Shown in pieces: positions 45,099 to 64,000 of a stretch of 64,000 nt of DNA. The number at the start of each line of letters is the position of its first letter. Position 1 is the stretch's first letter. The translations under genes were made by a program, and so were the position numbers. This DNA is from Candidatus Uhrbacteria bacterium (GTDB lineage Bacteria; Patescibacteriota; Patescibacteriia; UBA9934; GWF2-40-263): NCBI GenBank assembly GCA_016844925.1, contig JAERTI010000043.1, positions 66,642-130,641 on the forward strand. Reading direction: 5' to 3'. A model generated the notes under the pieces. That model had not been told where the DNA came from. It made no database searches and saw only the letters and a list, made by a program, of their open reading frames with translations.

Positions 45099-45132
45099 CG
45101 CTCGACCGAGGAGAACGTCCTCGTGTCGGGCT

Positions 45133-45174
45133 CCTCAACGTAGAGCTCGAGCTTGCTTGAGACCTGCGTTGAGG
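45133..45174 (+). repeat. attC-like repeat, A-type (CCTCAAC gtagag CTCGAG n4 CTCGAG acctgc GTTGAGG)
   Basis: preceded by GAGGAgaacgTCCTC hairpin. Confidence 0.6.
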
Positions 45175-45260
45175 GGAACACTGTGCATTACCGATTCCTT
45201 CTTGAAACATTCGAGGATGTATCGGTGATGCAACGGAGTGTCACCTCAGAGGAATCTTTC

Positions 45261-45614
45261 ATGTACAAGTACATCGTCGCACTGGCGATCTTCCTGTTCG
45301 CCGCCAACCCCGCCTACGCCTGCTCGCAGGACACTGGCAAGCAGATCCACTTTGAGTGGGAGGGGGAGACCTACGTGGTCGAGGCGCACAGGGATGTCAA
45401 CGCGACCGTGACCAAAGCGGTCACCGGAACCGAGTTCGAGGTCGAGATCGTCAACGCGACGACGCTGATCCTCAAGCAGGGGCGCAGGACGCTCGCTACT
45501 GGGAGCATCTGGGCCTGCACCAAGTGCTTCATCGGTTCGCCCGGCTATGTGACGTGGGAAGGTGAGGAGAGTGCCAAGAACGCCTACGACGCTTGCATCG
45601 ACGCCGCCGGCTAG
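45261..45614 (+). CDS. small secreted protein
   Basis: signal peptide ...ANPAYA|C; alternative ATG at 45228. Confidence 0.5.
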   Translation: MYKYIVALAIFLFAANPAYACSQDTGKQIHFEWEGETYVVEAHRDVNATVTKAVTGTEFEVEIVNATTLILKQGRRTLATGSIWACTKCFIGSPGYVTWEGEESAKNAYDACIDAAG

Positions 45615-45699
45615 AGAAGACAGATAAGTGAGCCCCCGGCTTGCTTCTGCTCTGACGTGGCTACGTCAGACGCGCTCGGTATGGGAATGAACTATTCTC

Positions 45700-45753
45700 T
45701 GCCGAGCTTCACAGCATAGTGGTTGATTACAAAAATCGACCCCTGCGCTGGGG
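45700..45753 (+). repeat. degenerate attC-like repeat (GGTTGATT...TCGAC...GCTGGGG)
   Basis: B-type L-boxes retained, R-boxes diverged. Confidence 0.4.
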
Positions 45754-45801
45754 AAGACTGATCTTCCTTTGAGGCCCGTTCATTCGGGCAAGGATAGCAA
45801 C

Positions 45802-46314
45802 ATGCTGCTGATCGCTCTGACGATCGTGTCCACCATCGCCCACGCTGACCTCACTCCCGTTGGCGCCACCGCCGACGAGGTCAAGGTGGAGGCGGAGCTC
45901 GTGATGGTGAGCTGGTACCGCGACCACGGGGAGACCTGCGAGGTCGAGGGTCCCCACGGTCACATTCAGTACGCCGACGGCACCGACGAGGTCGTGATGC
46001 CGAGCGAGTCCAGCGACGAGTACGTGCTCGACTTCACGTTCTCTCGTGAGCAGTTCGAGGGCAAGAAGCCCGAGGCGAGCTCGGACGATTCCAACGAGAA
46101 GACCGAGGCCATCGACCCCGAGCTGACCCTCAAGTCCCACCCGTTCTTCGAGGAGTGGGACCGCCAGCTCAAGGAGAATGATAGCTTCGGCGAGGCTTTC
46201 GACAAGCAGCTCAAGCTCCAGCTCGCCAAGGAGCAGGCCGAGATCGAGGAGCCCACCGAGTCCGCCACCATCGAGGAGCCCGCCGAGTCCACCGAGGACA
46301 GCCCCTCGAAGTAG
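45802..46314 (+). CDS. secreted acidic protein
   Basis: AAGGA RBS, signal peptide ...TIAHA|D. Confidence 0.5.
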   Translation: MLLIALTIVSTIAHADLTPVGATADEVKVEAELVMVSWYRDHGETCEVEGPHGHIQYADGTDEVVMPSESSDEYVLDFTFSREQFEGKKPEASSDDSNEKTEAIDPELTLKSHPFFEEWDRQLKENDSFGEAFDKQLKLQLAKEQAEIEEPTESATIEEPAESTEDSPSK

Positions 46315-46411
46315 CTCGCCGGAGGTTCTCCTGCACATCCTCTGCGGCCAGATACGCTGGCACGCAGAGCGTCGCATCCCGCGACACGTCCTGAGCAACG
46401 TCTGCTCGGGA

Positions 46412-46453
46412 TTTCAACGTAGAGCTCGAGTTTGCTCGAGACCTGCGTTGAGG
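46412..46453 (+). repeat. attC-like repeat, A-type
   Basis: TTTCAAC...CTCGAGtttgCTCGAG...GTTGAGG. Confidence 0.6.
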
Positions 46454-46506
46454 GCTGAGGCTCTCTTGATCAAATCCTCAGTGCTACTGGGGTAAAGGAA
46501 CACGAC

Positions 46507-46770
46507 ATGTTGATGATCGCTCTGACCCTCCTGATGGGCAACGCGAACGCTGGCATGAAGCGCGGTAAGGCTTCGGCCTCGGACACTACTCCCGTCAGCC
46601 TCTACCACAACGGTGAGGTGGCGGAGCTGGACCGCCAGGAGCTGGTGCAGACTCTGCACGACCTGATGCATCCCAGCTGCGAGGTGAATACCTCGCACGT
46701 CCACCGCGTGAACAAGCATGGTCTGGAAGAGGTCATCCTCATGCCGACCGAGCCGACCACCACCAACTGA
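46507..46770 (+). CDS. small secreted protein
   Basis: GGGTAAAGGA leader, signal peptide. Confidence 0.45.
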   Translation: MLMIALTLLMGNANAGMKRGKASASDTTPVSLYHNGEVAELDRQELVQTLHDLMHPSCEVNTSHVHRVNKHGLEEVILMPTEPTTTN

Positions 46771-46799
46771 CCCGACGAGGTGAACGACTTCGTCGGGAT

Positions 46800-46841
46800 C
46801 CTCAACGTAGAGCTCGAGTTTGCTCGAGACCTGCGTTGGGG
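46800..46841 (+). repeat. attC-like repeat, A-type
   Basis: CCTCAAC...GTTGGGG; preceded by cccgacgagg..ttcgtcggg hairpin. Confidence 0.6.
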
Positions 46842-46950
46842 AACCGCCCCTAAGTAAGATAACCGTCCGTGATCTGCAGCGCGCCGACATTTCCGTCGAG
46901 CAGCGCATATTGCAGCACTGGCAACTTCTGTGCGAGAGCGCGGGGGTATC

Positions 46951-47271
46951 ATGTTTCTGACTCAGATCTACAGCGCCGTGGAAGGTGACTTCAAGGCCAA
47001 CGCCGTCCGTATCACTGAGGTGGAGGCTGGCACAGGTATCTGGCTCGATCCTGAAGCTGATCCGCTCCTGGTCGTCGGTGAGTACATTCTGATGACTTCC
47101 GAAGGGAGGATTCTGGATGAGGATGAGTCCATCGAGGTCACGGTGAGGTCGCAGGGCATTCGTGTCCGCGTTCGTCTGTTCCATGATGGGCATGAGGCGG
47201 CAGCCTGGTGTCTGCTCCAGACAATCGGTAACGCGTCCATCAACACTGTCACGATCGATTGCGATGACTAA
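46951..47271 (+). CDS. hypothetical protein
   Basis: ORF within cassette. Confidence 0.45.
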   Translation: MFLTQIYSAVEGDFKANAVRITEVEAGTGIWLDPEADPLLVVGEYILMTSEGRILDEDESIEVTVRSQGIRVRVRLFHDGHEAAAWCLLQTIGNASINTVTIDCDD

Positions 47272-47380
47272 CGTTAAAGCAACCTGCACGAGACAGTACA
47301 TGACCCCGTCAGGCACGGATGACCTGGCGGGTATGACCGGGCTCAGCTCGGCACGCCTCAAGTACACGCAACGCTTGAGG

Positions 47381-47422
47381 ATCGAACGTAGAGCTCGAGT
47401 CTACTCGAGACCTGCGTTGGGG
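47381..47422 (+). repeat. attC-like repeat, A-type
   Basis: ATCGAAC...CTCGAGtctaCTCGAG...GTTGGGG. Confidence 0.55.
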
Positions 47423-47440
47423 AACGTTCCCTAGAACCAA

Positions 47441-47486
47441 ACCTCGTGCCCGCAAGGGATGTAGCCACAGTAAGAGTGGTGAGAGA
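47441..47486 (+). promoter_or_regulatory. conserved 5'-UTR motif M, copy 2 (stem CCAC/GTGG instead of CCGT/ACGG)
   Basis: compensatory change in the hairpin relative to copies 1 and 3. Confidence 0.55.
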
Positions 47487-47529
47487 ATGTGCGCCTGGGC
47501 GCACGCGGACTTGTCCGCACGGGATACAG

Positions 47530-47952
47530 ATGAAGACGCAAGCGTGTACGGCACTGGCGGTTACCCGCCGGAGTGAGCTGTACATCACGGTTCAGATCTA
47601 CGGAAGTCGCGCGATCGATGAGCCCAACATCAAGGTGCTCGCCCTGAGCGATTTCGTTCGATGGATCGCACCGGGTGTGACCGTTCAGCGCATCGCACAG
47701 AACCTGGTCCGTGTCCGTGAAATCGCCCCCGATTGGACTGCGAAGGTGGTCTACGGTGACGCCATCGGTTTGGGTGAGCCCTGCCTGCTTTCTGACAATC
47801 GCGCCGTAGTGTGTGTCTGGGCGACGGAGGAGGAGGCCTGGGATCACTGGGACGAGGTCATGGATCGCTGGCATCGGATGATGGAAGAAGATGCTCGTTA
47901 CTGGGACGAGCGGACTCTGGAAGAGCTGAGTGACTCGAGCCTGATGGCTTAA
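47530..47952 (+). CDS. hypothetical protein (141 aa)
   Basis: downstream of motif M. Confidence 0.45.
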   Translation: MKTQACTALAVTRRSELYITVQIYGSRAIDEPNIKVLALSDFVRWIAPGVTVQRIAQNLVRVREIAPDWTAKVVYGDAIGLGEPCLLSDNRAVVCVWATEEEAWDHWDEVMDRWHRMMEEDARYWDERTLEELSDSSLMA

Positions 47953-47987
47953 CGAGCCGACACTGGGAGAACGTCCCCGTGTCGGAC

Positions 47988-48058
47988 TCCCAACGTAGAG
48001 GTTGATTAACCACGTAAAACCCTTCGGGTCACGTGGCACGTCGACACCTGCGTTGGGG
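47988..48058 (+). repeat. attC-like repeat, B-type (GTTGAT ... ccacgt-aaaaccCTTCGgggt-cacgtgg ... GTCGAC acctgc GTTGGGG)
   Basis: internal UUCG-type tetraloop hairpin. Confidence 0.6.
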
Positions 48059-48073
48059 AAACCCTGCAACCAT

Positions 48074-48124
48074 CCCTCGCGCTTGGCCTGGCCAAGATGT
48101 AGCCGTGTAAAGACGGTGAGAGAA
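48074..48124 (+). promoter_or_regulatory. conserved 5'-UTR motif M, copy 3
   Basis: GATGTAGCCGTGTAAAGACGGTGAGAGAA followed by GCGGAggtTTCCGC hairpin. Confidence 0.55.
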
Positions 48125-48149
48125 CGCGGAGGTTTCCGCACGGATACGA

Positions 48150-48677
48150 ATGAAACTACGAACACCGGATGTGCACGAGGTTCGTCGGCGGGTCTACCAG
48201 TCCTGCTACGAGCTTCAGCACGCCAGGCAGGTCGTTGATGACGCCTGTCGAGCTGGTAGTTACTGGGCACTGGGCTGCGCACTCCGCGTGGAACAGATCG
48301 CTCAGCAGGCGCTGGCTGAGAATGAGAGAGCTCTGGAGAGGGAGCGTGATTACGCCATCTTCATAGAGCATTTGCGCAAGCATAGTACCGAGATTGCTCG
48401 TAGGCTTTCTCTGGTGCAGGCCCTGGAAGAAGAGTGTGCGTTCCTGGAGAAGAAGTGGGACGACGCTCGAGCTGATTTGGCCCATCAGCTGCGCCTTGCC
48501 AAGCGCCCCGGCCGCCCCGGAAAGAACGCGGCCGATCTCATTGGTGGTTTTGAGGCGGAGGTGGAGATTCACTGCCGCAACTATTTCGAGAAAGAAAGGG
48601 AACTCAGGTGCGCGCGTGAGTGGTGGTACAGGCTCATGTACCCCTGCCACCATAGGCATCTCAAGGTACGCGCGTAA
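48150..48677 (+). CDS. hypothetical helical protein (175 aa)
   Basis: downstream of motif M. Confidence 0.45.
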   Translation: MKLRTPDVHEVRRRVYQSCYELQHARQVVDDACRAGSYWALGCALRVEQIAQQALAENERALERERDYAIFIEHLRKHSTEIARRLSLVQALEEECAFLEKKWDDARADLAHQLRLAKRPGRPGKNAADLIGGFEAEVEIHCRNYFEKERELRCAREWWYRLMYPCHHRHLKVRA

Positions 48678-48726
48678 GACCTTGAGCGAGCTTGCTCGAC
48701 AGAGGAGTACGTCCTCCTGTCGGGCT

Positions 48727-48797
48727 CCTCAACACAGAGGTTGATTAACCACGTAAAACCCTTCGGGTCACGTGGCACGTCGACATCTGCGTTGGGG
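48727..48797 (+). repeat. attC-like repeat, B-type
   Basis: near-identical to 47988..48058. Confidence 0.6.
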
Positions 48798-48828
48798 AAA
48801 CCCTGACTCAGACCTATAGGAGGCCTTT

Positions 48829-49197
48829 GTGCCGCACACCGACAATCAGACTCTCTTCCTTCGGCTGACTCTTGCGGCGTGGATCGCCCAGGAGTTCGGG
48901 ATCGAGCCAGATATGGCCGAGATCGACGCGTTCCTCGCGAAGCTGCAGGACGAAGAGGCCCTGAATAACTTCGATGACCGGGACTCCCGACCGGGGTTCT
49001 GGATCATGGAGAACAAGCTCTTCCAGTACCACCATCACCACAAGCCCGGCTTCTACATCTACAACGTCGACGGTGAGAACTGGCACCGCGACTACAACCG
49101 CATCGACGATCTCAACCGGATCGTCTGGCCCAACCCGGTGATGACCGGCTCGGTTGGCAGCGACTGTGGTCGCTGGGGCTGCTGGGGTCGCTACTAG
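48829..49197 (+). CDS. hypothetical protein with HHHH tract
   Basis: AGGAGG RBS followed by GTG start. Confidence 0.45.
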   Translation: MPHTDNQTLFLRLTLAAWIAQEFGIEPDMAEIDAFLAKLQDEEALNNFDDRDSRPGFWIMENKLFQYHHHHKPGFYIYNVDGENWHRDYNRIDDLNRIVWPNPVMTGSVGSDCGRWGCWGRY

Positions 49198-49298
49198 CAC
49201 CCAGCACACAACCCCGTTAGGCACGGACGACCTAGCGGGCACCCACGTAAAGACCTTCGGTCCACGTGGCACGGCCCAAGTCACGACGCGACTTGGGA

Positions 49299-49340
49299 CC
49301 TGAACGTAGAGCTCGAGTTTGCTCGAAACCTGCGTTGAGG
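49299..49340 (+). repeat. attC-like repeat, A-type
   Basis: preceded by H1 hairpin, UUCG hairpin and cccaagt/acttggg hairpin. Confidence 0.6.
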
Positions 49341-49392
49341 GCTGAGGCTCTCTTGAACACACCCCCGGCAATGTCCGGGTAAAGGCTGCGAG

Positions 49393-49599
49393 ATGTGGAA
49401 TTGGCTGAACCGACTTCTGGGCATCAACCCCAAGAAGAAGGAGTCCACCACCAGGACGAGGACTGGGCTCGGCTCTCAGAACGACGCTTGGCGTCGTGAG
49501 CGCTGCCCGCTTCCTGAGTTCGATTTCAGGGGCCCCACGCGTCGCCGGATTGAGCGAGAGCTCGCCGAACGAGCGCACGCCCGCACCGAACGCTACTAG
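49393..49599 (+). CDS. small basic protein (68 aa)
   Basis: cccggc..ccggg-TAAAGG leader. Confidence 0.35.
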   Translation: MWNWLNRLLGINPKKKESTTRTRTGLGSQNDAWRRERCPLPEFDFRGPTRRRIERELAERAHARTERY

Positions 49600-49628
49600 C
49601 CCGACGAGGTGAACGACCTTGTCGGGAT

Positions 49629-49670
49629 CCTCAACGGAGTTCTCGATAAGATCGAGAGTTCCGTTGAGAG
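49629..49670 (+). repeat. attC-like repeat, C-type (CCTCAAC ggagtt CTCGAT aaga TCGAGA gttcc GTTGAGA)
   Basis: same architecture, different L-boxes. Confidence 0.55.
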
Positions 49671-49805
49671 ATTTTCAAAAATGATTGTTCTTCCGGGGCG
49701 CAGAATACAATTGTGCTCCCTGGAAGGCTGGTCAGTAATCGGGATTGATCAGTCTCTTCTGCTTAGGCAGAGCCAGCATTTGCTGGAACACACGAAGGAG
49801 AAACA

Positions 49806-50135
49806 GTGACCCGCTGTGATAAATGTGGTCTCCCTGTAACAAGGGAAAACAACGCACTTCTGCTTTCGATCGTCGTCAAGCGCATGGTGAAGCACGGAGT
49901 GGATTACGTTCCTGGCGAGTGTAACGCCCTCGATCTCATGGCCATTGTTGTGCTCAGGGGTCGACACTTGCTGCCGGTAACCGAAGGTGATGAGGTGGTT
50001 TGCACTGGCTCCCCAAGCCGCGCACAGTACCTGCCTGGTCAGCCTGAGGATACGCGCGGGTTTCCGCTTGATGAGAATCTTCGTCCCGTCTACGACGCGG
50101 CTTACAATCGTCTGACATCCGGCAGGCCGATCTGA
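49806..50135 (+). CDS. hypothetical protein with N-terminal CxxC
   Basis: AAGGAG RBS followed by GTG; AT-richer cassette. Confidence 0.45.
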   Translation: MTRCDKCGLPVTRENNALLLSIVVKRMVKHGVDYVPGECNALDLMAIVVLRGRHLLPVTEGDEVVCTGSPSRAQYLPGQPEDTRGFPLDENLRPVYDAAYNRLTSGRPI

Positions 50136-50203
50136 TGTAGTCTCATCACTTGCTACGCCCCCCCGACCGAGGACCCGTCTGACAGCAGATGGGGAACGTC
50201 CTC

Positions 50204-50244
50204 GTTCGGGCTCCCAATGGAGCGTTCGATAAGATCGAATGTTC
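50204..50244 (+). repeat. attC-like repeat, C-type variant with compensatory R-box change (CCCAAT / ATTGAGG)
   Basis: C to T in R'' matched by G to A in R'. Confidence 0.5.
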
Positions 50245-50320
50245 CATTGAGGGAAACCTCTTGCACGACAGCTGACGGCTTGCCGTCATAACCATAAGCA
50301 GTCCCTCCCTGGAGTAACAC

Positions 50321-50575: not shown

Positions 50576-50663
50576 GTCCCACCGCACACCCGCCCAGGCA
50601 CACACGACCTGGCGGGTACGACCGAGCTCAGCTCGGCACGCCTCAAGTGAGACGCACTTGAGG

Positions 50664-58412: not shown

Positions 58413-58644
58413 GGCTCTGACGAGCTAAACCCGTAGCAGGTTCGGAATCAGGATCGTGGTTGTAAAGACCAGTTCTGATTCATCTGAGGCGGGAAACGGT
58501 TTACGCGACCCAAGTTGACGCAGACTTGGGGCTACCTACATGTACTTAAACCTTGAGTGCAGCTAGGTGGTCTTGATCTCAGAAGTTTGAGGCGGTAGGG
58601 TCTTAAACTCCTGGGATGAATGAATCATCCTGGTAGGAGGGTGT

Positions 58645-59127
58645 GTGCCAGGACGGATCTACACGCAGAAAGAGGTGCGCGAGAAGCAAGAAAAACTTCT
58701 CGAGCTCTATCAGGAGGCAAAGCGCATTGCCCTGCAGGTGGCAGAGGCCGCCTTCGAGGAAACCGGTGCGAAAGAGACGCTTTTGCGTCAGTATGATGAT
58801 CTGCAGCTTGAGATCGAGTTCTCAGGCGGTGATCAGATCGGCTGGATGGTGTGCACCGGCAGTGGGCACAATCTCATCTTTGCCAAGCTGTTCCAGTTTG
58901 AGTGCTACTTCTCCGAGAAGAGAGAGGGAAGGCCTCACATCTTTGTCCGGTGGAGCGGTGAAGGGTTCATGGTGGTCGTGGACGACTGCCCCGCGGTGCA
59001 CGTGGACTACGGCGTGGACATCCTTTACGGCGAGTACACGATTCGCATCTTCCGCAACACGGAAGAGATCGACGAGTGGTCAAAGACCAAGCAGGCTGAG
59101 CACATCGCTCGCACACGCGTCGAGTAA
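58645..59127 (+). CDS. hypothetical protein (160 aa)
   Basis: GGAGGG RBS followed by GTG. Confidence 0.5.
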   Translation: MPGRIYTQKEVREKQEKLLELYQEAKRIALQVAEAAFEETGAKETLLRQYDDLQLEIEFSGGDQIGWMVCTGSGHNLIFAKLFQFECYFSEKREGRPHIFVRWSGEGFMVVVDDCPAVHVDYGVDILYGEYTIRIFRNTEEIDEWSKTKQAEHIARTRVE

Positions 59128-59221
59128 TTCGACGAGTCTGCCACGCAGACCAACACCGGCAGGGTGAAGCCGGTACGCTATGACAAGCAGAACACCCGGA
59201 CGCTTGTCACTACTGACCCGC

Positions 59222-59262
59222 GCTCGATAAGTTCGAGAGCGGATCGGTGGATGTTCTATCTG
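59222..59262 (+). repeat. G-type hairpin repeat (ACTGACCCGCGCTCGA n4 TCGAGAGCGGATCGGTGG)
   Basis: 16-bp imperfect stem, variable 4-nt loop; four copies. Confidence 0.55.
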
Positions 59263-59352
59263 CACCAAACACCCGTGATCTGCATGCTCGGGGGTAATGA
59301 TGCCCCTTGAGACAAGCAGCACCGGCCCTTCTGCTGAGAGGCAGGAGCGACA

Positions 59353-59949
59353 ATGGGACGTGAGCAGGAAATTGATGAGCGACTGACGCGCCTAGAGATC
59401 GAGACGCACCTGGATACGTTGTACGCTTACAGAGAGAGACTCAGGGTGAAGATGGATGATCTCCAATGGCACTATGAGCGAATTCCATTCATGCAGTCTG
59501 AGGAGCTTTTTAGGAAGCAGGTTCATGCTGCTGGTCTGGAGATTGCGCATGTGCAGCGGCAGCTTGATGCTAGTGATGAGATGATCAGGAGCTTCAAGCG
59601 ACAGGTCGCCAGTCACAGGGCTGCCCAAGGGCTGGTCGTCGTTCAGGATGTTGATGATGGTGGACTGAGTCTGGTACAGGGAACAAAGTTTCCGACTCCA
59701 AGAACGGTATCTCATCACTGGTTCGTGCGATTGCTGCTGGCAGCCAAGATCCTTGAAGTGGATCACGGTGCGGCCGCAGAGCAGGCCTCTCAGGGGCTTG
59801 AGGTGGTCGACTCCGTTGACCGCGGCGGACTGACCGTCTCGTCCGGGGGAGGGCAGCTCGCCCTTACTGATAACAAGACCACGGAGCCACTCCTTCAGGA
59901 ACCTACACGTTCCTGGTGGCGAAGGTTCACGTCATGGCTGACGTCATGA
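59353..59949 (+). CDS. hypothetical protein (198 aa)
   Basis: AGGAG RBS. Confidence 0.5.
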   Translation: MGREQEIDERLTRLEIETHLDTLYAYRERLRVKMDDLQWHYERIPFMQSEELFRKQVHAAGLEIAHVQRQLDASDEMIRSFKRQVASHRAAQGLVVVQDVDDGGLSLVQGTKFPTPRTVSHHWFVRLLLAAKILEVDHGAAAEQASQGLEVVDSVDRGGLTVSSGGGQLALTDNKTTEPLLQEPTRSWWRRFTSWLTS

Positions 59950-59992
59950 CAAGTAAACATTACGACGGGTGGACAATCGTGTTCACCCGGCT

Positions 59993-60031
59993 ACTGACCC
60001 GCGCTCGACAAGTTCGAGAGCGGATCGGTGG
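59993..60031 (+). repeat. G-type hairpin repeat
   Basis: loop caag. Confidence 0.55.
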
Positions 60032-60085
60032 ACGTGAGTTCACTGGAACACTGTCTCGGCAAGGCCGAGAGAAAGGACTGACGCG

Positions 60086-60601
60086 ATGCGTTGGTTGATC
60101 ATGGTGGTTGTCTTGAACCTGTTGCCAGGCACCGTCCTGGCTGGCGAGTTCATGCACAGTCCACCGCACCTGCAAAAGGTGCAGAGGGCCATGCGAGTGG
60201 TCCATGGTGATGGGTACGTGCCGAGGGAAATCAAGCTGGAACGCTTCGAGTGTTACCAGAATGCGTTTCTCTCTTTTGTGGACGTGCTAGACGCACAAGT
60301 GGAGGCGGCAGAGACGGGGCTGGTTCAGCTCAGTTTCACCGTCGATTTTCTGCGTTGTGCTCAAGTGCATGTTCCTGGAGAAGTCGGCATCTTCATGCCC
60401 GCATGGGAGACGGCCGTCAACATCGCTCTACAGCGAGAGGCCAAGCAGGCACTGAGGCGTCTGCGTAGGGATTACACCCAGCAGGATCGCAAGAAGCTCA
60501 TGAGGCTGCTGCGACTCAGGGGCATCACGCTTCTGGAGATCGGTACGCATCCTGAGGAGCTGCGCAAGTTGCGTCGTTCGACCACGAAGATGCAGAAGTA
60601 A
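60086..60601 (+). CDS. secreted protein (171 aa)
   Basis: signal peptide. Confidence 0.5.
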   Translation: MRWLIMVVVLNLLPGTVLAGEFMHSPPHLQKVQRAMRVVHGDGYVPREIKLERFECYQNAFLSFVDVLDAQVEAAETGLVQLSFTVDFLRCAQVHVPGEVGIFMPAWETAVNIALQREAKQALRRLRRDYTQQDRKKLMRLLRLRGITLLEIGTHPEELRKLRRSTTKMQK

Positions 60602-60628
60602 GTCTGCTTTTCTGAAAGGGTGATAGAG

Positions 60629-60955
60629 ATGAATGACGAGTTTGATCAGTTGCCCCTTCCGTTGATTCGCGTGCTCGCGGAACTTCCAGGGGTGGAGCCA
60701 CCCAATGATCCGTGCTGGATCCAGCTTGATGATGAGGATCTTCAATGGTTCCTCCGTGGGTTGCAAGAAAGGCCCAAGCTCCTCAAGGGAGTGCAGGTGG
60801 AATTGAGCGTTGAGGTTACCGATTTGGGTGATCTGACCAGACGGAGCCTCGTTGAGATGCTCTGCGAAAGATCGGACGAGATCCTTGGATTGAAGGTCAG
60901 GGTCTTTTCCACGCACGAGCAGCTGGGAACGCTGCTCTACGGCCTGAGGCAGTAA
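60629..60955 (+). CDS. hypothetical acidic protein
   Basis: second ORF in the same cassette. Confidence 0.45.
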   Translation: MNDEFDQLPLPLIRVLAELPGVEPPNDPCWIQLDDEDLQWFLRGLQERPKLLKGVQVELSVEVTDLGDLTRRSLVEMLCERSDEILGLKVRVFSTHEQLGTLLYGLRQ

Positions 60956-60974
60956 ACGCTCAGGCAATACCCAC

Positions 60975-61132
60975 AAGCGTTCATGTTCCTTGGTTGACCA
61001 GCTCGGTCAGAGGCAAGGAGGAACAGCGATTGTGGGAGACGGTGAGATACCGTCAACGAGCCCAAGTCATACGGACTTGGGACTACTGACCCGCGCTCGA
61101 GAGATCGAGAGCGGATCGGTGGACACAACGTT
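60975..61132 (+). repeat. about 150-nt structured element ending in a G-type hairpin, copy 1
   Basis: about 85% identical to 61845..61998 with compensatory changes. Confidence 0.55.
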
Positions 61133-61174
61133 CATCGGAATCTCATCTCCGCATCGTGGAGAGAAGGGAAAGAG

Positions 61175-61462
61175 GTGCGTAAGTACTTCGTCTACATTTT
61201 TTTGCTTGGAGCGGTCTTCAACATCTGTCTGATCATTGCCTCTCGGACGCTCACGTTCGAGATGCAGGGATTTTGGCTGGTGATGCTTGGTGGGGTTTTG
61301 TTCGGATTTGGTCTGGGTCTCATGTTGGCGCACCACGGTCGTCAGGTTGTCCAGTACGTGCGGATGTTGCCTTCAGAGCGCTCCATCATCTTCCAACTTC
61401 TGGCCTCCATCATGGTGATGTTCTCCATCTTGCCGGTAGTGCTTGTACTGCTGGTGGGTTAG
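61175..61462 (+). CDS. small membrane protein (95 aa)
   Basis: GTG start, three TM helices. Confidence 0.45.
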   Translation: MRKYFVYIFLLGAVFNICLIIASRTLTFEMQGFWLVMLGGVLFGFGLGLMLAHHGRQVVQYVRMLPSERSIIFQLLASIMVMFSILPVVLVLLVG

Positions 61463-61463
61463 G

Positions 61464-61826
61464 GTGCAGTCGCAGGCAGAGCCCCTGGGTTACCTGGGCA
61501 TCATCCGTCGGCTCAAGGGTGGGGCGTGGCGCTTCAAGGTCTACGAGGTCCTCGACAAGGAACAGGTGGAAACGCTCCCCGGCTTCAAGAAGAAGGTGAA
61601 TCCGCCCATACGCTTTTTCGGCGCGGGCGCACACCTGGAGTTCACTACGCGCGGGTGTACGCACATCATCGGGCACATGCAGGAATTCAGACTTGGCAAG
61701 AGTCTGAAGTTCATCTACTACTGCGCCGCGTTGCACGACAAGGATGTGGACCTCGAGTGGTACGCACGCCAGATGTGCAGCAATCTGATCATGAACGGGT
61801 TCGAGCTGACGCCTGAGTCAACGTGA
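61464..61826 (+). CDS. hypothetical protein (120 aa)
   Basis: GTG start overlapping previous stop. Confidence 0.4.
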   Translation: MQSQAEPLGYLGIIRRLKGGAWRFKVYEVLDKEQVETLPGFKKKVNPPIRFFGAGAHLEFTTRGCTHIIGHMQEFRLGKSLKFIYYCAALHDKDVDLEWYARQMCSNLIMNGFELTPEST

Positions 61827-61844
61827 TCAAGAGTGACAGCCCAC

Positions 61845-61998
61845 CTTCGTTTAGGTTCCTTTGTTGACCAGCTCGGTCAGAGGCAAAGAGGAACATCGGA
61901 TGTGGGAGACGGTGCAATACCGTCGACGACCTCAAGTCAAACGGACTTGAGGGCACTGACCCGCGCTCGAGTAGATCGAGAGCGGATCAGTGGTTAGC
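61845..61998 (+). repeat. about 150-nt structured element ending in a G-type hairpin, copy 2
   Basis: paralog of 60975..61132. Confidence 0.55.
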
Positions 61999-62111
61999 CA
62001 CTGTGAACTCCTCGTGCCCTTTGGGTATAGCTGGGAGGAAAGCCCAGTGAGAGGAATCTGTGCAGGCCGTGAGGTCGCATAGAGCGGGCGAGAGTCCGTG
62101 ATGAGTAGAAG

Positions 62112-62534
62112 ATGAGTGAAGTCTGGTGGGAAATCGCCGTAGTGTTGATGCTTGCCTTGTTGGGACTTGGCATGATGGAAATCCTGATCCTGGTCCTCGG
62201 GCGGATGACCATTCTGTGGTATAGGCGTCAGCCGTTCCACCTGGTCTGGCGCAAGGGCTGTGACTACGAGATCATCCCGCTGCGCGTCGGGCAGATCGTG
62301 GAGCTGGATACGGAGCTCTTCGCCGAAGCGCTCGCCGAGGGTTTCGTGCAAGTGACTCGTGGGGACCATGTCCCCATGATCGTTCGGGAGGGCTATGTGC
62401 ACTCCCGGCGTGTGGATGGCTGCAGCTTCAAGCTGTACGTCGGCTCCAAGTCCTACCAGCGCGCTGAATCGTTCGTCCGGCGCCGCAAGGTCGTCAACGG
62501 GCTCCGTGCCACGTTCGGGTACGATCCCAAGTAA
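62112..62534 (+). CDS. hypothetical protein with N-terminal TM (140 aa)
   Basis: ORF within cassette. Confidence 0.45.
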   Translation: MSEVWWEIAVVLMLALLGLGMMEILILVLGRMTILWYRRQPFHLVWRKGCDYEIIPLRVGQIVELDTELFAEALAEGFVQVTRGDHVPMIVREGYVHSRRVDGCSFKLYVGSKSYQRAESFVRRRKVVNGLRATFGYDPK

Positions 62535-62578
62535 GCAGGCGAGCTACGCGCTCACCGTGAGGATGCTCTCCTCCGGTG

Positions 62579-62645
62579 GGCTCCTCAACAGAGAGGTTGA
62601 CCACGTAAAGCCCTTTGGGCCACGTGGCAAGATCGACAGCTCTGT
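62579..62645 (+). repeat. attC-like repeat, B-type variant (internal gcccTTTGgggc hairpin)
   Basis: compensatory variant of the B-type internal hairpin. Confidence 0.55.
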
Positions 62646-62697
62646 TGGGGAACCATCCCTACAAACGTCCCGGCGTATCCGGGTAAAGGACACAGAG

Positions 62698-62859
62698 ATG
62701 GTAGAACAGGCATTTTTCGCAGGCGTGATCGCCGCGGGACTCGCTCTTCTTCTGGGAGCGCTGCTTCAGCGCTGGTTCAAGCACATCAAGAACAACGCGA
62801 CCCTGGAGACGACCAAGCCCTGGGCGGACGATGGAGGTGAAGATGGAGATGAGTCCTGA
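62698..62859 (+). CDS. small membrane protein (53 aa)
   Basis: cccggc..ccggg-TAAAGGA leader. Confidence 0.4.
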   Translation: MVEQAFFAGVIAAGLALLLGALLQRWFKHIKNNATLETTKPWADDGGEDGDES

Positions 62860-63286
62860 GGCAACGATCTACCTCACTGGAGTGGGCGTCGTAGCAGTAC
62901 TGGCTCTCGGCTTGTACGTGTACTTCCTGATCCGTTCCTCGCAGAAGCTGTGGATCCTCCACACCATGCGGGTGAATAAGGGTCCCGTCTACGCGTTCGC
63001 GTCGGCGGTCTCCTGGGGCGTTCCCTACACCTGGGTTCATGCACAAGACCAGCCTTCGTCATCGTCGCTGTTTGTGAAGCAGGTGAGCAAGACAACTCTG
63101 TGTGCTTCACTCTCGGTTGGTGAGGAGTATCACAAGACCGAGATTGGTCTGGAGCTTGATCAGGAGATGTCGTTCAGCTACAAGACTGGGGTCATGATCC
63201 AGGAAATCCACGTGTTTCCGGATGAGCAGGACGTCCTTCGGTTTTGTCGAGATCACGAGATCCACCTGGCTTCGGTCTTCGACTAG
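62849..63286 (+). CDS. membrane-anchored protein, paralog family Y
   Basis: GGAGGTG RBS; paralog of 63471..63914. Confidence 0.5.
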   Translation: MSPEATIYLTGVGVVAVLALGLYVYFLIRSSQKLWILHTMRVNKGPVYAFASAVSWGVPYTWVHAQDQPSSSSLFVKQVSKTTLCASLSVGEEYHKTEIGLELDQEMSFSYKTGVMIQEIHVFPDEQDVLRFCRDHEIHLASVFD

Positions 63287-63384
63287 TGAACCTACGTCCA
63301 TGGCGGCGGCCTAACGAACACGCAACGAGAGCTGTCCTTGTGACTCCTGGTGACGACAACCGGTAGAGACACAGGACGGCTTCC

Positions 63385-63425
63385 TCTCTGGCTTCTCGAG
63401 TTCGCTCGAGGGGCAGGAGAGGGAA
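63385..63425 (+). repeat. diverged A-type attC-like repeat (CCTCTC ... CTCGAGttcgCTCGAG ... GAGAGG)
   Basis: R-boxes changed but still complementary. Confidence 0.4.
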
Positions 63426-63470
63426 TCATCCCTACGAACGTCCCGGCGTATCCGGGTAAAGGATAGAGAG

Positions 63471-63914
63471 GTGAGTTCCGAGTTCATTACCGTCATGGTA
63501 TGGATCACGGTCATTGGCTTCATTTGCGTGGGGCTGACCTGGTACATGCTCAAGCGTTCGTACAGGAAGTTGTGGGTGCTGCACACGGTGCAGTTCACGG
63601 GCAGCAAGCAGATCCACGGCTACCTCAAGCCTGTGGCCTGGCGCGAGCCTTACGTGCAGCTGTTCCATCCGGTGCACCCGCTGCATGGAAACCGTCTGAC
63701 GGTTCGCTGGATCGGTGAGCATTCTGCGTGGGTGCGCTGGGAGACTAGCGACGGCCGCATGGAGTCCAGGATTGGGCTCGGAAGCGGCTTGAAGACCAAC
63801 GTGGCATTCACTGTTGGCACTATCACCACCGAGGTCCGCGTGTTCGCGGGCCCTGATGGGGTAATGATTTTCTGTCGTGACAACGGCGTTGAGCTGATCA
63901 GAGAGCGGGGATAG
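63471..63914 (+). CDS. membrane-anchored protein, paralog family Y
   Basis: same leader as 62665..62697, GTG start. Confidence 0.5.
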   Translation: MSSEFITVMVWITVIGFICVGLTWYMLKRSYRKLWVLHTVQFTGSKQIHGYLKPVAWREPYVQLFHPVHPLHGNRLTVRWIGEHSAWVRWETSDGRMESRIGLGSGLKTNVAFTVGTITTEVRVFAGPDGVMIFCRDNGVELIRERG

Positions 63915-64000
63915 GTATGTCAGTGTTCACGACATTAGCGAGCGTGTCCTAAAGATACGTGACAAGAGATAATACGTAAGTACCGACGTGCCCTCGGCTC

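What the first reader, a model, noticed from the sequence alone, without database searches (positions are those of the whole stretch)
45100..64000. Long integron-like cassette array with attC-like repeats but no integrase in the window
About 30 consecutive units each consist of one or two small co-oriented ORFs followed by an imperfect inverted repeat. The repeat has inverse core CCTCAAC, an unpaired spacer, L'' box, variable centre, L' box, spacer, and core GTTGRGG. That matches the R''-L''-L'-R' logic of integron attC sites, and R' approximates the GTTRRRY core.

The ORFs are almost all of unrecognisable families (small membrane, secreted and Cys-rich proteins), as in chromosomal integron arrays. 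No tyrosine recombinase or attI was found on either strand between 38 kb and 64 kb. The array is therefore CALIN-like, or intI lies outside the window, or this is a cassette system using a different recombinase.

Several site families coexist (A, B, C, D, G types). That is unusual for a sedentary chromosomal integron, whose attC sites are normally homogeneous.
Basis: partly seen in the sequence, partly recalled or inferred. Interest (0 to 1): 0.9.

Follow-up and report, generated by a model that had tools for sequence, protein, structure and literature searches.

The report
Integron-like cassette array without attC sites
A probable candidate-phyla-radiation bacterium carries a ~27 kb single-promoter string of about 50 tiny orphan genes, each ending in a conserved hairpin repeat; it looks like an integron cassette array, but the hairpins fail every integron test I could run, so it is an independent kind of cassette-structured variable region.

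Summary
A covariance model of the repeat finds 29 same-strand sites, all between 44.2 and 63.4 kb and none in the other 41 kb; one more site was read by eye. The array starts at a strong promoter beside rpsP (41.26 kb). It runs 4.6 kb past the window to a canonical terminator.

A relative with ~90% identical DNA has the same flanks and cassette order. It differs by about 15 cassette-sized insertions or deletions whose breakpoints lie in the repeats.

The repeats are not attC sites:
- A model built from 14 real attC sites finds none of them.
- There are no extrahelical bases.
- Four site families lack the GTT core.
- At every change of site type, the 3' box pairs with its own 5' box, not the next cassette's. 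This excludes the integron crossover point.
- The sense strand folds better in 26 of 29 sites, against 1 of 14 real attC sites.
- No integrase lies within 41 kb upstream or ~8 kb downstream.

Breakpoints fall at varying positions within the repeats. My best reading is sense-strand, probably RNA-level, intercistronic hairpins whose similarity drives homologous recombination. A dedicated unknown recombinase is not excluded.

The parts
40417..40953 (-). rpsP (ribosomal protein S16), conserved left flank of the array
   Evidence: Pfam Ribosomal_S16; same flank in relative L121
39338..40372 (-). radical SAM gene, conserved left flank
   Evidence: Pfam Radical_SAM; syntenic in L121
41256..41284 (+). 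promoter-like site TTGACA-17-TATTGT with TG, pointing into the array
   Evidence: 10/12 match; inside the array promoter-like hits are at chance level
41285..64000 (+). cassette array (continues to about window-equivalent 68,620 in L126, where a hairpin+T-run terminator lies)
   Evidence: GC 58% vs 48-51% core
44175..44241 (+). hairpin site, D-like outer box (..ATCGGTGG), long tip
   Evidence: R1 29.5 bits
44579..44626 (+). hairpin site, D type (CTAACGA/TCGGTGG)
   Evidence: R1 42.8 bits
45130..45178 (+). hairpin site, A type (CCTCAAC/GTTGAGG)
   Evidence: R1 58 bits
45706..45757 (+). hairpin site, A-variant (TCACAGC/GCTGGGG)
   Evidence: R1 40.1 bits
46409..46457 (+). hairpin site, A type
   Evidence: R1 59.4 bits
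46797..46845 (+). hairpin site, A type
   Evidence: R1 61.1 bits
47378..47426 (+). hairpin site, A type
   Evidence: R1 52.5 bits
47985..48062 (+). hairpin site, A type with module b in the tip
   Evidence: R1 40.4 bits; D6/D9
48724..48801 (+). hairpin site, A type with module b in the tip
   Evidence: R1 38.5 bits
49296..49344 (+). hairpin site, A type
   Evidence: R1 56.5 bits
49626..49673 (+). hairpin site, A variant with fully paired spacer (GGAGTT/AGTTCC)
   Evidence: R1 51.4 bits
50209..50256 (+). hairpin site, B type (CCCAATG/CATTGAG)
   Evidence: R1 45.1 bits
50661..50709 (+). hairpin site, A type; ortholog in L121 carries a 70-nt tip module
   Evidence: R1 43.7 bits
51323..51371 (+). 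hairpin site, A type; ortholog in L121 has block of compensatory changes
   Evidence: R1 58.9 bits
51737..51789 (+). hairpin site, D type (CCACTGA/TCAGTGG)
   Evidence: R1 39.6 bits
52735..52851 (+). hairpin site, A type with 70-nt 'T' tip module
   Evidence: read; 3' half D4; too long a tip for R1
53327..53404 (+). hairpin site, A type with module b in the tip
   Evidence: R1 38.7 bits
54412..54460 (+). hairpin site, A type
   Evidence: R1 54.7 bits
55036..55084 (+). hairpin site, A type
   Evidence: R1 55.5 bits
55798..55846 (+). hairpin site, A type
   Evidence: R1 57.8 bits
56107..56155 (+). hairpin site, A type
   Evidence: R1 55.8 bits
56782..56834 (+). hairpin site, A type
   Evidence: R1 48.4 bits
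57340..57388 (+). hairpin site, C type (CCCATCT/AGATGGG)
   Evidence: R1 44.6 bits
58529..58574 (+). weak D-like hairpin (CTACCTA/TAGGTGG)
   Evidence: R1 12.4 bits, E 0.79; boundary of a window-only segment
59207..59254 (+). hairpin site, D type
   Evidence: R1 47.1 bits
59988..60035 (+). hairpin site, D type
   Evidence: R1 47.2 bits
61080..61126 (+). hairpin site, D type
   Evidence: R1 48.8 bits
61950..61997 (+). hairpin site, D type
   Evidence: R1 46.5 bits
62580..62654 (+). hairpin site, A type with module b in tip; ortholog in L121 has the T module instead
   Evidence: R1 32.1 bits
63379..63427 (+). hairpin site, G type (TCCTCTC/GAGAGGG)
   Evidence: R1 45.4 bits
45100..45129 (+). accessory hairpin X (..GAGGAGnACGTCCTC..), one of 9 copies; others start near 43158, 43643, 48694, 51293, 53297, 54382, 56077, 56752
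   Evidence: D1/D3; + strand only, array only
54953..54980 (+). accessory hairpin a (CCCyGTyAGGCACGGAyGACCTrrCGGG), one of 4; others at 47305, 49213, 52681
   Evidence: D17
54983..55009 (+). accessory hairpin b (CCACGTAAAGnCCTTyGGnCCACGTGG) outside a main hairpin; also 49243; four further copies sit inside main-hairpin tips (48010, 48749, 53352, 62601)
   Evidence: D9
55015..55038 (+). accessory mini-hairpin c (CCyCAAG..CTTGrGG), one of 9; others at 47357, 49275, 50642, 52714, 55777, 58509, 61061, 61931
   Evidence: D11; a window/L121 crossover lies just 3' of it
44256..44338 (+). structured 5' leader family 1 (CCTCGyGC-hp-ATGTAGC-hp-TGAGAGrA); other copies 47441-47529, 48074-48149, 62009-62111
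62655..62697 (+). 5' leader family 2 (..CCCGGCGTATCCGGGTAAAGGA..); also 63428-63470; family 3 (GCTGAGGCTCTCTTGA..GGGTAAAGG) at 46454-46506 and 49341-49392
41512..41745 (+). cassette ORF 77 aa (signal-peptide-like N terminus)
42070..42363 (+). cassette ORF 97 aa
42821..43134 (+). cassette ORF ~104 aa (segment absent from L121)
43267..43625 (+). cassette ORF 119 aa, paralog of 43751-44128
43751..44128 (+). cassette ORF 125 aa
44339..44527 (+). cassette ORF 62 aa, membrane-like (absent from L121)
44665..44892 (+). cassette ORF 75 aa
44901..45098 (+). cassette ORF 65 aa
45261..45614 (+). cassette ORF 117 aa, lipoprotein-like signal (absent from L121)
45802..46314 (+). cassette ORF 170 aa, no Pfam/PHROG (absent from L121)
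46507..46770 (+). cassette ORF 87 aa (absent from L121)
46951..47271 (+). cassette ORF 106 aa (absent from L121)
47530..47952 (+). cassette ORF 140 aa
48150..48677 (+). cassette ORF 175 aa (frame/strand uncertain: no third-position excess)
48829..49197 (+). cassette ORF 122 aa (absent from L121)
49393..49599 (+). cassette ORF 68 aa (absent from L121)
49806..50135 (+). cassette ORF 109 aa (absent from L121)
50321..50575 (+). cassette ORF 84 aa
50734..51279 (+). cassette ORF 181 aa, no Pfam/PHROG
51439..51654 (+). cassette ORF 71 aa, membrane-like
51920..52651 (+). cassette ORF 243 aa, member of a family widespread in CPR genomes
52898..53239 (+). cassette ORF 113 aa, membrane-like (absent from L121)
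53453..54202 (+). cassette ORF 249 aa, paralog of 51920-52651
   Evidence: (D7)
54210..54371 (+). cassette ORF 53 aa, Cys-rich C terminus; paralog-like of 55849-56067
54541..54930 (+). cassette ORF 129 aa
55164..55481 (+). cassette ORF 105 aa, membrane-like (absent from L121)
55485..55693 (+). cassette ORF 69 aa (absent from L121)
55849..56067 (+). cassette ORF 72 aa, Cys-rich
56186..56728 (+). cassette ORF 180 aa; only itself found among 5.8 billion proteins; distant paralog beyond the window
56872..57054 (+). cassette ORF 60 aa
57126..57254 (+). cassette ORF 42 aa
   Evidence: L119 gene 361-489
57452..57658 (+). cassette ORF 68 aa (absent from L121)
57660..57833 (+). cassette ORF 57 aa (absent from L121)
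57830..58120 (+). cassette ORF 96 aa, membrane-like (absent from L121)
58131..58412 (+). cassette ORF 93 aa, membrane-like (absent from L121)
58645..59127 (+). cassette ORF 160 aa
59353..59949 (+). cassette ORF 198 aa (absent from L121)
60086..60601 (+). cassette ORF 171 aa
60629..60955 (+). cassette ORF 108 aa
61175..61462 (+). cassette ORF 95 aa, membrane-like (absent from L121)
61464..61826 (+). cassette ORF 120 aa (absent from L121)
62112..62534 (+). cassette ORF 140 aa
62698..62859 (+). cassette ORF 53 aa (absent from L121)
62843..63286 (+). cassette ORF 147 aa, paralog of 63471-63914 (absent from L121)
63471..63914 (+). cassette ORF 147 aa

Best explanation
This is a chromosomal, cassette-structured variable region. 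It looks like a sedentary integron array but is not one.

Anatomy:
- A single consensus promoter next to rpsP drives one ~27 kb transcription unit. It holds about 50 small orphan genes, many membrane- or secretion-like, and ends at one canonical terminator.
- Each cistron or small group of cistrons is followed by a polar, modular stem-loop repeat.
- The main hairpin has 19 bp. It has an invariant TCGA inner stem, a covarying outer box and a conserved ..TTGrGG(A)AAC 3' edge.
- Optional accessory hairpins X, a, b and c precede it, and its tip is exchangeable.

Proposed mechanism:
- The hairpins are selected on the sense strand. They most probably act in the transcript as intercistronic 3'-end stabilising or processing structures.
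- Because they are near-identical over 40-150 nt, they are substrates for homologous recombination, and occasionally microhomology-mediated recombination, and for gene conversion.
- That recombination deletes, duplicates and replaces whole cassettes. It also homogenises the repeats while leaving the order of the remaining cassettes intact.

Shown: the anatomy, the covariation, the confinement to the array, the sense-strand bias, the cassette indels between relatives, the variable crossover positions, and the failure of the attC tests.

Inferred: the RNA-level role, RecA-type recombination as the driver, and single-operon transcription.
For: - Structure is real and polar: 13 of 19 pairs are compensatory. 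There are 29 + strand sites, all inside the array. All accessory modules are + strand only and array only.
- Sense-strand selection: the top strand folds better in 26 of 29 sites, against 1 of 14 genuine attC sites. G.T wobble occurs at 13 pair columns on the top strand against 6 on the bottom.
- One promoter (10/12 match). Internal promoter- and terminator-like hits are at chance level. A hairpin plus T-run terminator lies only at the distal end, followed by a new promoter.
- Relative L121 (~90% identical) is colinear, with about 11 window-only and 4 L121-only cassette segments bounded by repeats.
- Crossovers are not at one fixed point. They lie within accessory modules in junctions at 55080/55794 and 61122/61839. 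They lie at 7-nt or shorter microhomologies in junctions at 42755/43707 and 57382/58567.
- Orthologous hairpins have swapped tips and blocks of compensatory change. The 70-nt tip module has 6 copies in L121 against 1 in the window. This indicates gene conversion.
- Cassette ORFs are mostly unrelated to each other, yet they are real coding sequence. Differences by codon position are 157/122/264.
Against: - There are no transcript data, so the RNA role and read-through are inferred.
- Homologous recombination explains loss and homogenisation. It does not explain how unrelated orphan ORFs each came to carry the same 3' module, nor how lineage-specific cassettes arose. Two positions hold different cassettes in the two genomes, with divergence starting exactly after the 3' box.
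- The invariant TCGA in both arms and the conserved 3' edge suggest recognition by a sequence-specific protein.
- Strict confinement to one locus is more typical of a recombination platform than of generic RNA stem-loops.
- The array is 8-10% richer in G+C than the core genes, which hints at a separate origin.
Confidence: 0.5

Rival explanations
1. A new cassette-capture system, analogous to integrons but independent of them. A dedicated recombinase encoded elsewhere in the genome recognises the folded top-strand hairpin. It could be a tyrosine, serine or HUH/Y1-type single-strand enzyme. It would cut at the 3' edge of the ..TTGrGG box and move units of leader, ORF and hairpin.
For: - The invariant TCGA inner stem, covarying outer box and conserved 3' edge look like a protein recognition site.
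- Sites are strictly confined to one locus behind one promoter.
- Where the two genomes carry different cassettes at the same position, divergence begins directly after the 3' box (junctions at 45179 and 48797). Another crossover lies at the 3' edge of the mini-hairpin CTTGGGG.
- Hairpins belong to the upstream ORF, as attC sites do.
- By GC skew, the better-folding top strand is the lagging-strand template, so it is exposed as single strand.
- Unrelated orphan ORFs share the same 3' module.
Against: - No recombinase of any recognised family lies in the window or in ~8 kb downstream.
- Several junctions lie at non-equivalent positions.
- Cassette order is conserved, with no reshuffling.
- There is no turnover among 99.4-99.9% identical strains.
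- No other array with this site family appeared in the metagenome scan, so no linked enzyme could be found.
Confidence: 0.25
2. A genuine integron array without its integrase (CALIN), or with intI far away. The repeats would be highly divergent attC sites recombined by an IntI-type tyrosine recombinase.
For: - The general layout matches: ORF followed by an imperfect palindrome with a variable tip.
- The A family has CCYCAAC...GTTGRGG, close to RYYYAAC/GTTRRRY.
- A promoter lies at the proximal end.
- Cassettes are orphan genes.
- The orientation relative to replication is the one reported for sedentary chromosomal integrons (PMC5371416, found but abstract only, so the orientation point rests on my own knowledge).
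Against: - A model built from 14 genuine attC sites finds none of the sites, although it recovers real attC sites outside its seed. The reciprocal search is also negative.
- There are no extrahelical bases and the spacers are symmetric. These unpaired features define attC (PMC5027507).
- The D, B, C and G families lack the GTT/AAC triplet needed for strand transfer (PMC5027507).
- At 8 of 8 clear type transitions the 3' box pairs with its own 5' box, so sites are intact and not hybrids. This excludes the G|TT crossover.
- The strand bias of folding is opposite to attC.
- No IntI lies where it should be, upstream of the first cassette, in either genome.
Confidence: 0.08
3. Selfish modular repeat elements of the REP/BIME, BOX or MITE kind have colonised the intergenic spaces of a dispensable gene island. 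A transposase acting in trans would mobilise them. They would have no role for the host.
For: - The architecture is modular and nested. Modules occur in different combinations, and module b is found both beside and inside the main hairpin.
- The 70-nt tip module has expanded in one lineage: 6 copies against 1.
- A GTAG motif lies 5' of the inner palindrome in many A sites, as in REPs (the REP feature is from my own knowledge).
Against: - There are zero copies in ~49 kb of flanking sequence.
- All copies are in one orientation.
- They sit at a constant position just after stop codons.
- No RAYT or other transposase was seen in the available sequence.
Confidence: 0.12
4. Assembly artefact, or a chimera of a low-GC and a high-GC organism.
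For: The G+C content is sharply mosaic.
Against: - Independent short-read contigs from the same sample match the window at 100%, including across the low-GC/high-GC junction (L120) and into the right flank (L126).
- The same rpsP-plus-array junction is present in three other metagenome assemblies.
Confidence: 0.02

Closest known systems
Sedentary chromosomal integron arrays / CALIN (clusters of attC sites lacking an integrase)
   Same: - Long chromosomal string of co-oriented, mostly orphan, promoterless small ORFs behind one proximal promoter.
- Each unit ends in an imperfect palindrome with paired outer and inner boxes and a variable tip.
- The repeat belongs to the upstream ORF.
- Cassette presence or absence differs between relatives.
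- No integrase nearby, as in CALINs.
   Different: - The hairpins are symmetric, with no extrahelical bases.
- The inner box, not the outer core, is the invariant part.
- Four families lack GTT.
- Sites are intact rather than hybrid at type transitions.
- The sense strand, not the bottom strand, is the better folder.
- A model built from real attC sites does not detect them.
- Several accessory hairpins precede the main one.
- Cassette order is fixed between relatives.
PeSL 'mobile regulatory cassettes' in hyperplastic regions of T4-type phages (Arbiol et al. 2010, PMC2839356)
   Same: - Conserved short regulatory repeats containing stem-loops lie between small orphan genes.
- Insertions, deletions and replacements between close relatives are bounded by the repeats.
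- Those changes are attributed to recombination between the repeats.
   Different: - PeSLs combine a strong early promoter with a terminator stem-loop. Here the repeats carry no promoter and no T-run.
- The host is a cellular genome, not a phage.
- The repeats here are longer, modular and show covariation.
REP/BIME elements with RAYT transposases, and modular BOX elements of Streptococcus pneumoniae (own knowledge)
   Same: - Modular, nested, imperfect palindromes in intergenic or 3' positions.
- They can fold in the transcript and stabilise upstream cistrons.
- They are substrates for recombination.
   Different: - Those elements are dispersed genome-wide and occur in both orientations.
- These are confined to one locus, in one orientation, with one per cassette.
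- No RAYT was seen.
IS200/IS605-family single-strand transposition (own knowledge)
   Same: - Hairpins are recognised on one strand, the lagging-strand template.
- Cleavage occurs next to, not inside, the hairpin.
- Insertion occurs 3' of a short conserved motif.
   Different: - Those elements carry hairpins at both ends and encode TnpA.
- Here only a 3' hairpin is present and no TnpA was found.

Membership tests
integron attC site | Inverse core and core RYYYAAC / GTTRRRY with the conserved AAC/GTT triplet used for strand transfer (PMC5027507) | tested here: not met
   The A family (about 20 sites) has YYYCAAC/GTTGRGG. The D (TCRGTGG), C (AGATGGG), G (GAGAGGG) and B (CATTGAG) families lack GTT.
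integron attC site | Extrahelical bases on one arm near L'' that impose bottom-strand selectivity | tested here: not met
   Both arms have equal length (7+6+6 nt). There is no bulge in any of 23 aligned sites. The 14 real attC sites aligned all show the L'' bulge.
integron attC site | Unpaired central spacer between the R and L boxes | tested here: inconclusive
   Only a 2x2 internal loop (columns 17-18 / 39-40) is unpaired in the A family. It is fully paired in some variants.
integron attC site | Variable terminal structure | tested here: met
   Tips range from 3 to about 70 nt and are exchanged between orthologous sites.
integron attC site | Crossover between G and TT of R', so that in an array R' belongs to the downstream cassette (hybrid sites) | tested here: not met
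   At 8 clear type transitions R' matches its own R'' in 6-7 of 7 positions and the next site's R'' in only 3-5 of 7. For 11-nt arms the figures are 9-11 against 3-7. Real class 1 arrays show hybrid sites.
integron attC site | Bottom strand is the favoured folder | tested here: not met
   The top strand is more stable in 26 of 29 sites. In 14 real attC sites the bottom strand is more stable in 12, with one tie and one where the top is more stable.
integron attC site | Detected by an attC covariance model | tested here: not met
   The proxy model R2 was built from 14 class 1 attC sites. It gave no hit at any site at E<=10. It recovers real attC sites, including two not in its seed. The IntegronFinder model itself could not be run.
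integron (complete) | intI (tyrosine recombinase with the IntI-specific insertion) and attI next to the first cassette | tested here: not met
   rpsP and a radical SAM gene occupy that position in both genomes. There is no IntI1-like match in the window, L119-L123 or L126. No Phage_integrase Pfam hit was found in the ORFs scanned. The rest of the genome could not be tested.
integron (complete) | Promoter upstream of the first cassette driving promoterless cassettes | tested here: met
   TTGACA-17-TATTGT at 41256-41284. Internal promoter-like hits are at chance level.
CALIN | At least two attC sites as called by IntegronFinder, with no integrase within about 4 kb | not testable with these tools
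   This depends on the official attC model. The absence of an integrase is met.
REP/BIME with RAYT | Dispersed in intergenic regions across the genome, in both orientations, with a RAYT gene | tested here: not met
   There are no copies in window 1-41000, L120, or L126 beyond the array. The orientation is single. Only about 77 kb of the genome was seen.
PeSL-type regulatory cassettes | Composite of a sigma-70-like promoter plus a terminator stem-loop between orphan genes, with recombination between copies | tested here: not met
   Stem-loops and repeat-bounded indels are present. There is no promoter in the repeats and no T-run.
any curated RNA family (Rfam 15) | Match to a covariance model | tested here: not met
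   No hit in the array at gathering thresholds or at E<=1.

The most novel reading that the evidence does not exclude
An independently evolved counterpart of the integron in candidate-phyla-radiation bacteria. It would be a gene-cassette platform whose recombination sites are symmetric hairpins read on the top strand, the opposite polarity to attC. The sites would be cut at their 3' edge, outside the stem, by a recombinase unrelated to IntI and encoded elsewhere in the genome. It would supply a ~1 Mb episymbiont genome with a reservoir of about 50 fast-evolving surface or secreted mini-proteins.
Probability: 0.22. Interest if true: 0.9.

Novelty: new variant of a known kind. Interest (0 to 1): 0.66.

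Why it matters
Integrons are so far the only well-understood cassette-array system, and their sites and integrase define how such arrays are searched for.

Here a very similar genome architecture has been built from repeats that fail the integron tests. The host is a lineage with tiny genomes, probably the candidate phyla radiation. A ~27 kb array would be a few percent of such a chromosome.

- If the hairpins are only RNA elements plus recombination substrates, this shows that integron-like cassette arrays can arise and be maintained without a dedicated recombinase. It also warns against calling attC sites by eye.
- If a dedicated enzyme exists, it is a second, independent cassette-capture system.

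Either way, the locus is a concentrated source of orphan membrane and secreted proteins. These are candidates for host interaction in an uncultured episymbiont.

I found no description of such arrays in these bacteria in the searchable literature.

Tried and rejected
None had the full hairpin.
- The metagenome-contig scan with TCGAGACCTGCGTTGRGG gave 68 loci. None matched model R1.
- The look-up of the last window ORF failed because its start codon did not match the record. Walking out of the window worked only through a homolog search on an L121 protein.
- More distant members of the 243-aa family lie in ordinary core contexts (L127) or in a small-ORF region without hairpin repeats (L130). 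They gave no lead to a recombinase.
- Ten cassette proteins gave no Pfam or PHROG match. One cassette protein (180 aa) found only itself among 5.8 billion proteins.
- Cluster look-up gave no organism names.
- Rfam gave nothing at either threshold.
- The structure of the 243-aa family was predicted with high confidence (pLDDT 96.8). It showed only weak, non-significant similarity to DHH/DHHA1 phosphoesterases (best E 5e-3, TM 0.34). It is not a recognisable recombinase.
- I considered a DNA-uptake sequence and rejected it, because the sites are absent from 41 kb of core sequence.
- I considered a CRISPR-like array because of the ..TTGGGGAAAC 3' end. I rejected it because spacing is 309-1185 bp, the intervals hold coding ORFs, and there is no CRISPR repeat hit in Rfam.
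- I considered intrinsic terminators and rejected them. The hairpins have no T-run, whereas a canonical terminator exists at the end of the array.

Full report
**1. What is in the sequence**

From 44.2 to 63.4 kb, short + strand ORFs alternate with conserved imperfect palindromes.

The commonest form is CCTCAAC-GTAGAG-CTCGAG-loop-CTCGAG-ACCTGC-GTTGRGG. I aligned 23 short-tip copies and counted pairs on a 19-bp hairpin:
- 86% of cells pair, against 25-45% when the 3' partner is slid by 1-3 columns.
- 13 of 19 pairs show changes on both sides.
- No shuffle out of 500 reaches the observed covariation.

The outer 7-nt box covaries between families:
- CCTCAAC/GTTGAGG
- CCACTGA/TCAGTGG
- CCCATCT/AGATGGG
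- TCCTCTC/GAGAGGG
- CCCAATG/CATTGAG

The TCGA core of the inner stem is invariant.

A covariance model of this alignment (R1) finds 29 + strand sites at E<1e-4, all between 44175 and 63427. Nothing scores better than E~0.9 in the first 41 kb. One site with a 70-nt tip (52735-52851) was added by eye. Scores on the + strand are 15-25 bits higher than on the - strand at the same place, so the sites are polar.

Four accessory hairpin modules precede many sites: X, a, b and c. They occur only on the + strand and only in the array. Module b also sits inside the tip of four main hairpins.

**2. True extent and context**

Left edge:
- The low-GC core genes rpsP and a radical SAM gene end at 41.0 kb.
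- A 10/12 sigma-70-type promoter with an extended -10 lies at 41256-41284 and points into the array.
- The first high-GC cassette ORF starts at 41512.

Right edge:
- A short-read contig from the same sample (L126) overlaps the last 620 nt of the window at 100% and extends it.
- The array continues for 4.6 kb with another repeat family.
- It ends at a hairpin plus T-run, followed by a low-GC spacer with a second 10/12 promoter.
- That promoter precedes a 246-aa gene. After it come SMC, DHH, ClpP, VanW, HSP20 and TrmB genes.

Inside the array, promoter-like and terminator-like hits are at chance level. The locus therefore reads as one ~27 kb transcription unit of about 50 ORFs. This is an inference.

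G+C content:
- array: 58-59%
- core genes: 48-51%
- window 26-39.3 kb: 61%, but without repeats

**3. Organism**

The organism is probably a candidate-phyla-radiation (Patescibacteria) bacterium.
- The only cassette protein with many homologs is the 243-aa ORF at 51920-52651. Its named relatives are Parcubacteria, Uhrbacteria and Magasanikbacteria.
- The window also carries type IV pilus genes and an unlinked 16S rRNA gene.

This taxonomic placement is an inference.

**4. No integrase**

- tblastn with IntI1 finds nothing in the window, L119-L123 or L126. It does find the positive control. The query proved 100% identical to real IntI1.
- Pfam scans of the larger ORFs across the window and the precomputed Pfam hits for the flanks show no recombinase.
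- The position where intI would sit, upstream of the first cassette, is occupied by rpsP in this genome and in the relative.

**5. Comparative evidence**

A protein 88% identical to the 243-aa cassette ORF led to contigs from three other metagenomes (L121-L123).

L121 has the same radical SAM - rpsP - array arrangement. It is colinear with the window in blocks of mostly 90-96% identity. It lacks 11 window segments:
- 42755-43707
- 44235-44643
- 45179-47405
- 48797-50263
- 52848-53385
- 55080-55794
- 56151-56812
- 57383-58567
- 59254-59991
- 61122-61839
- 62700-63421

It carries about 4 segments that the window lacks. All breakpoints lie in or beside the repeats. Cassette order is otherwise identical.

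Three versions of the relative at 99.4-99.9% identity show no cassette difference.

The ORFs are genuine coding sequence in aggregate. Differences at codon positions 1/2/3 are 157/122/264. Most are unrelated to one another; one search detected 4 weak paralog pairs and (D7) a fifth. Those tested have no Pfam or PHROG family. One finds only itself in 5.8 billion proteins.

**6. Are the repeats attC sites?**

I tested the defining features named in Nivina et al. 2016 (PMC5027507).

(a) Detection by an attC model.
- I fetched class 1 integrons from the plasmid collection.
- I extracted 14 genuine attC sites and aligned their R and L boxes.
- I built model R2 from them.
- R2 recovers real attC sites at 33-62 bits, including the orfF attC and another that were not in its seed.
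- It finds none of the window sites at E<=10.
- R1 in turn finds no real attC site.

(b) Real attC sites all show the L'' bulge and a 5/6-nt asymmetric spacer. The window sites are symmetric and have no bulge.

(c) Families D, C, G and B lack the GTT/AAC triplet.

(d) Hybrid-site test.
- In an integron the crossover between G and TT makes the last six bases of R' belong to the downstream cassette. With heterogeneous sites, R' should therefore match the next site's R''.
- At 8 clear changes of site type, R' matches its own R'' in 6-7 of 7 positions. It matches the next site's R'' in only 3-5 of 7.
- The sites are intact units, and any cut must lie outside the stem.

(e) Strand bias.
- With DNA energy parameters, the sense strand is the better folder in 26 of 29 sites.
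- In 14 real attC sites the bottom strand is better in 12, with one tie.
- G.T wobble positions are likewise more widespread on the sense strand.

Membership in the attC/integron family is therefore not supported. The caveat is that the IntegronFinder model itself could not be run.

**7. How the cassettes turn over**

Where the flanking repeats differ enough to locate the crossover, it is not at one fixed position.
- Two junctions place it right after the 3' box (45179, 48797).
- One places it just 3' of mini-hairpin c (55080/55794).
- One places it within the long accessory region (61122/61839).
- Two place it at 7-nt or shorter microhomologies away from equivalent site positions (42755/43707, 57382/58567).

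Orthologous hairpins in the two genomes differ by whole-block replacements:
- Tip module b is swapped for the 70-nt module.
- A short tip is swapped for the 70-nt module.
- A coordinated compensatory change of spacer and inner stem occurs at 51323.
- The 70-nt tip module has 6 copies in L121 and 1 in the window.

These are signatures of homologous recombination and gene conversion among repeats, not of a precise site-specific reaction.

**8. Best explanation and rivals**

I judge it most likely (about 0.5) that the hairpins are sense-strand, probably RNA-level, intercistronic structures of a long operon. Their similarity makes them recombination substrates that delete, duplicate and replace cassettes.

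The closest described parallel is the PeSL regulatory cassettes of T4-type phage hyperplastic regions (PMC2839356). Those carry promoters, and these do not.

This does not explain how unrelated orphan ORFs came to share the same 3' module. It also does not explain the invariant TCGA or the strict confinement to one locus. A dedicated, still unseen recombinase acting on the top-strand hairpin therefore remains a serious rival (about 0.25).

Other rivals:
- A true integron/CALIN is unlikely (about 0.08).
- A REP/BOX-like selfish element is possible (about 0.12) but fits poorly with the single orientation and single locus.
- An assembly artefact is excluded for practical purposes, because independent contigs match at 100% across both edges and the same junction exists in other metagenomes.

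**9. Novelty**

- Full-text searches for integrons or attC together with Patescibacteria, candidate phyla radiation or Parcubacteria returned nothing describing such arrays.
- The repeat family was not found elsewhere in the two large scans.

I rate the finding a new variant of a known kind: an integron-like cassette array built on non-attC hairpins.

Noticed in passing
window 44256-44338, 47441-47529, 48074-48149, 62009-62111 (orthologs L121 6570-6664, 7242-7323, 15529-15635): Four cassettes share a structured 5' leader: CCTCGyGC - hairpin 1 - (G/T)AT(G/A)TAGC - hairpin 2 - TGAGAGrA, then 40-60 nt to the start codon. Both hairpins keep pairing through changes on both sides (CCGT/ACGG, CCAC/GTGG, CTGGG/CCCAG). 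There is no Rfam match. It could be an undescribed cis-regulatory RNA.
   Followed up: partly
window 46454-46506, 49341-49392, 62655-62697, 63428-63470: Two further families of cassette 5' leaders end in a small hairpin followed by GGGTAAAGG and a start codon 5-9 nt later. Leaders and 3' hairpin types are combined in different ways, which suggests modular exchange.
   Followed up: no
window 1-26000 vs 26000-39300 vs 39300-41400 vs 41400-64000: The G+C content is sharply mosaic: 48%, 61%, 51% and 58%. The 26-39 kb block holds ordinary-sized, mostly minus-strand genes (spermine synthase, DUF350, DUF2617; a SAM riboswitch at 36099-36201). It has no hairpin repeats, so high G+C is not restricted to the cassette array.
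   Followed up: partly
window 51920-52651, 53453-54202; L126 5684-6424: A 240-250 aa protein family without a Pfam model occurs three times: twice as a cassette and once with its own promoter just after the array terminator. It is strongly conserved across candidate-phyla-radiation genomes, with 203 hits and invariant motifs PGFDAG, WW, LGL and SG. The AlphaFold model is very confident (pLDDT 96.8). It has only weak similarity to DHH/DHHA1 phosphoesterases (E 5e-3, TM 0.34).
   Followed up: partly
L130 9884-9984 and 10728-10828 (GCA_027425155.1): In a distant relative, the gene of the same 240-aa family is flanked by a 101-nt direct repeat (92% identical). This looks like an inserted or duplicated unit.
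   Followed up: no
window 22031-23527 (-): A complete 16S rRNA gene has no 23S rRNA gene next to it. The neighbours are threonine synthase and dihydroorotate dehydrogenase. The rRNA genes are therefore unlinked.
   Followed up: no
window 40417-40953 (-): Ribosomal protein S16 carries a ~110-residue Ala/Glu/Lys-rich low-complexity C-terminal extension. It is visible as 15-57 nt periodic repeats in the DNA.
   Followed up: no
L121 11990-12125: In the relative, the ortholog of the site at window 54412-54460 has a different, ~85-nt imperfect palindrome made of GCTA/TTAGC-rich units in its tip. Hairpin tips appear to be insertion hot spots for several unrelated small palindromes.
   Followed up: no
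window 41290-41345: Just downstream of the array promoter, the low-GC leader contains, in order, ACTCAAC, ATCGAT, ACTGC and CTGGGGA. These are the same blocks as in the hairpin site but with different spacing. It may be a degenerate or ancestral copy. Model R1 does not detect it.
   Followed up: no
window 63940-64000 and L126 560-720, 1290-1400, 3590-3760, 4580-4700: The last five cassettes use another repeat: ..AATACGTAAGTACCGA..CTCGATTGGGAAAC GGGGCAGCAAyGACGCGCTGCCC.. It keeps only the TCGA plus TTGGGAAAC part of the main site and adds a new leader hairpin.
   Followed up: partly
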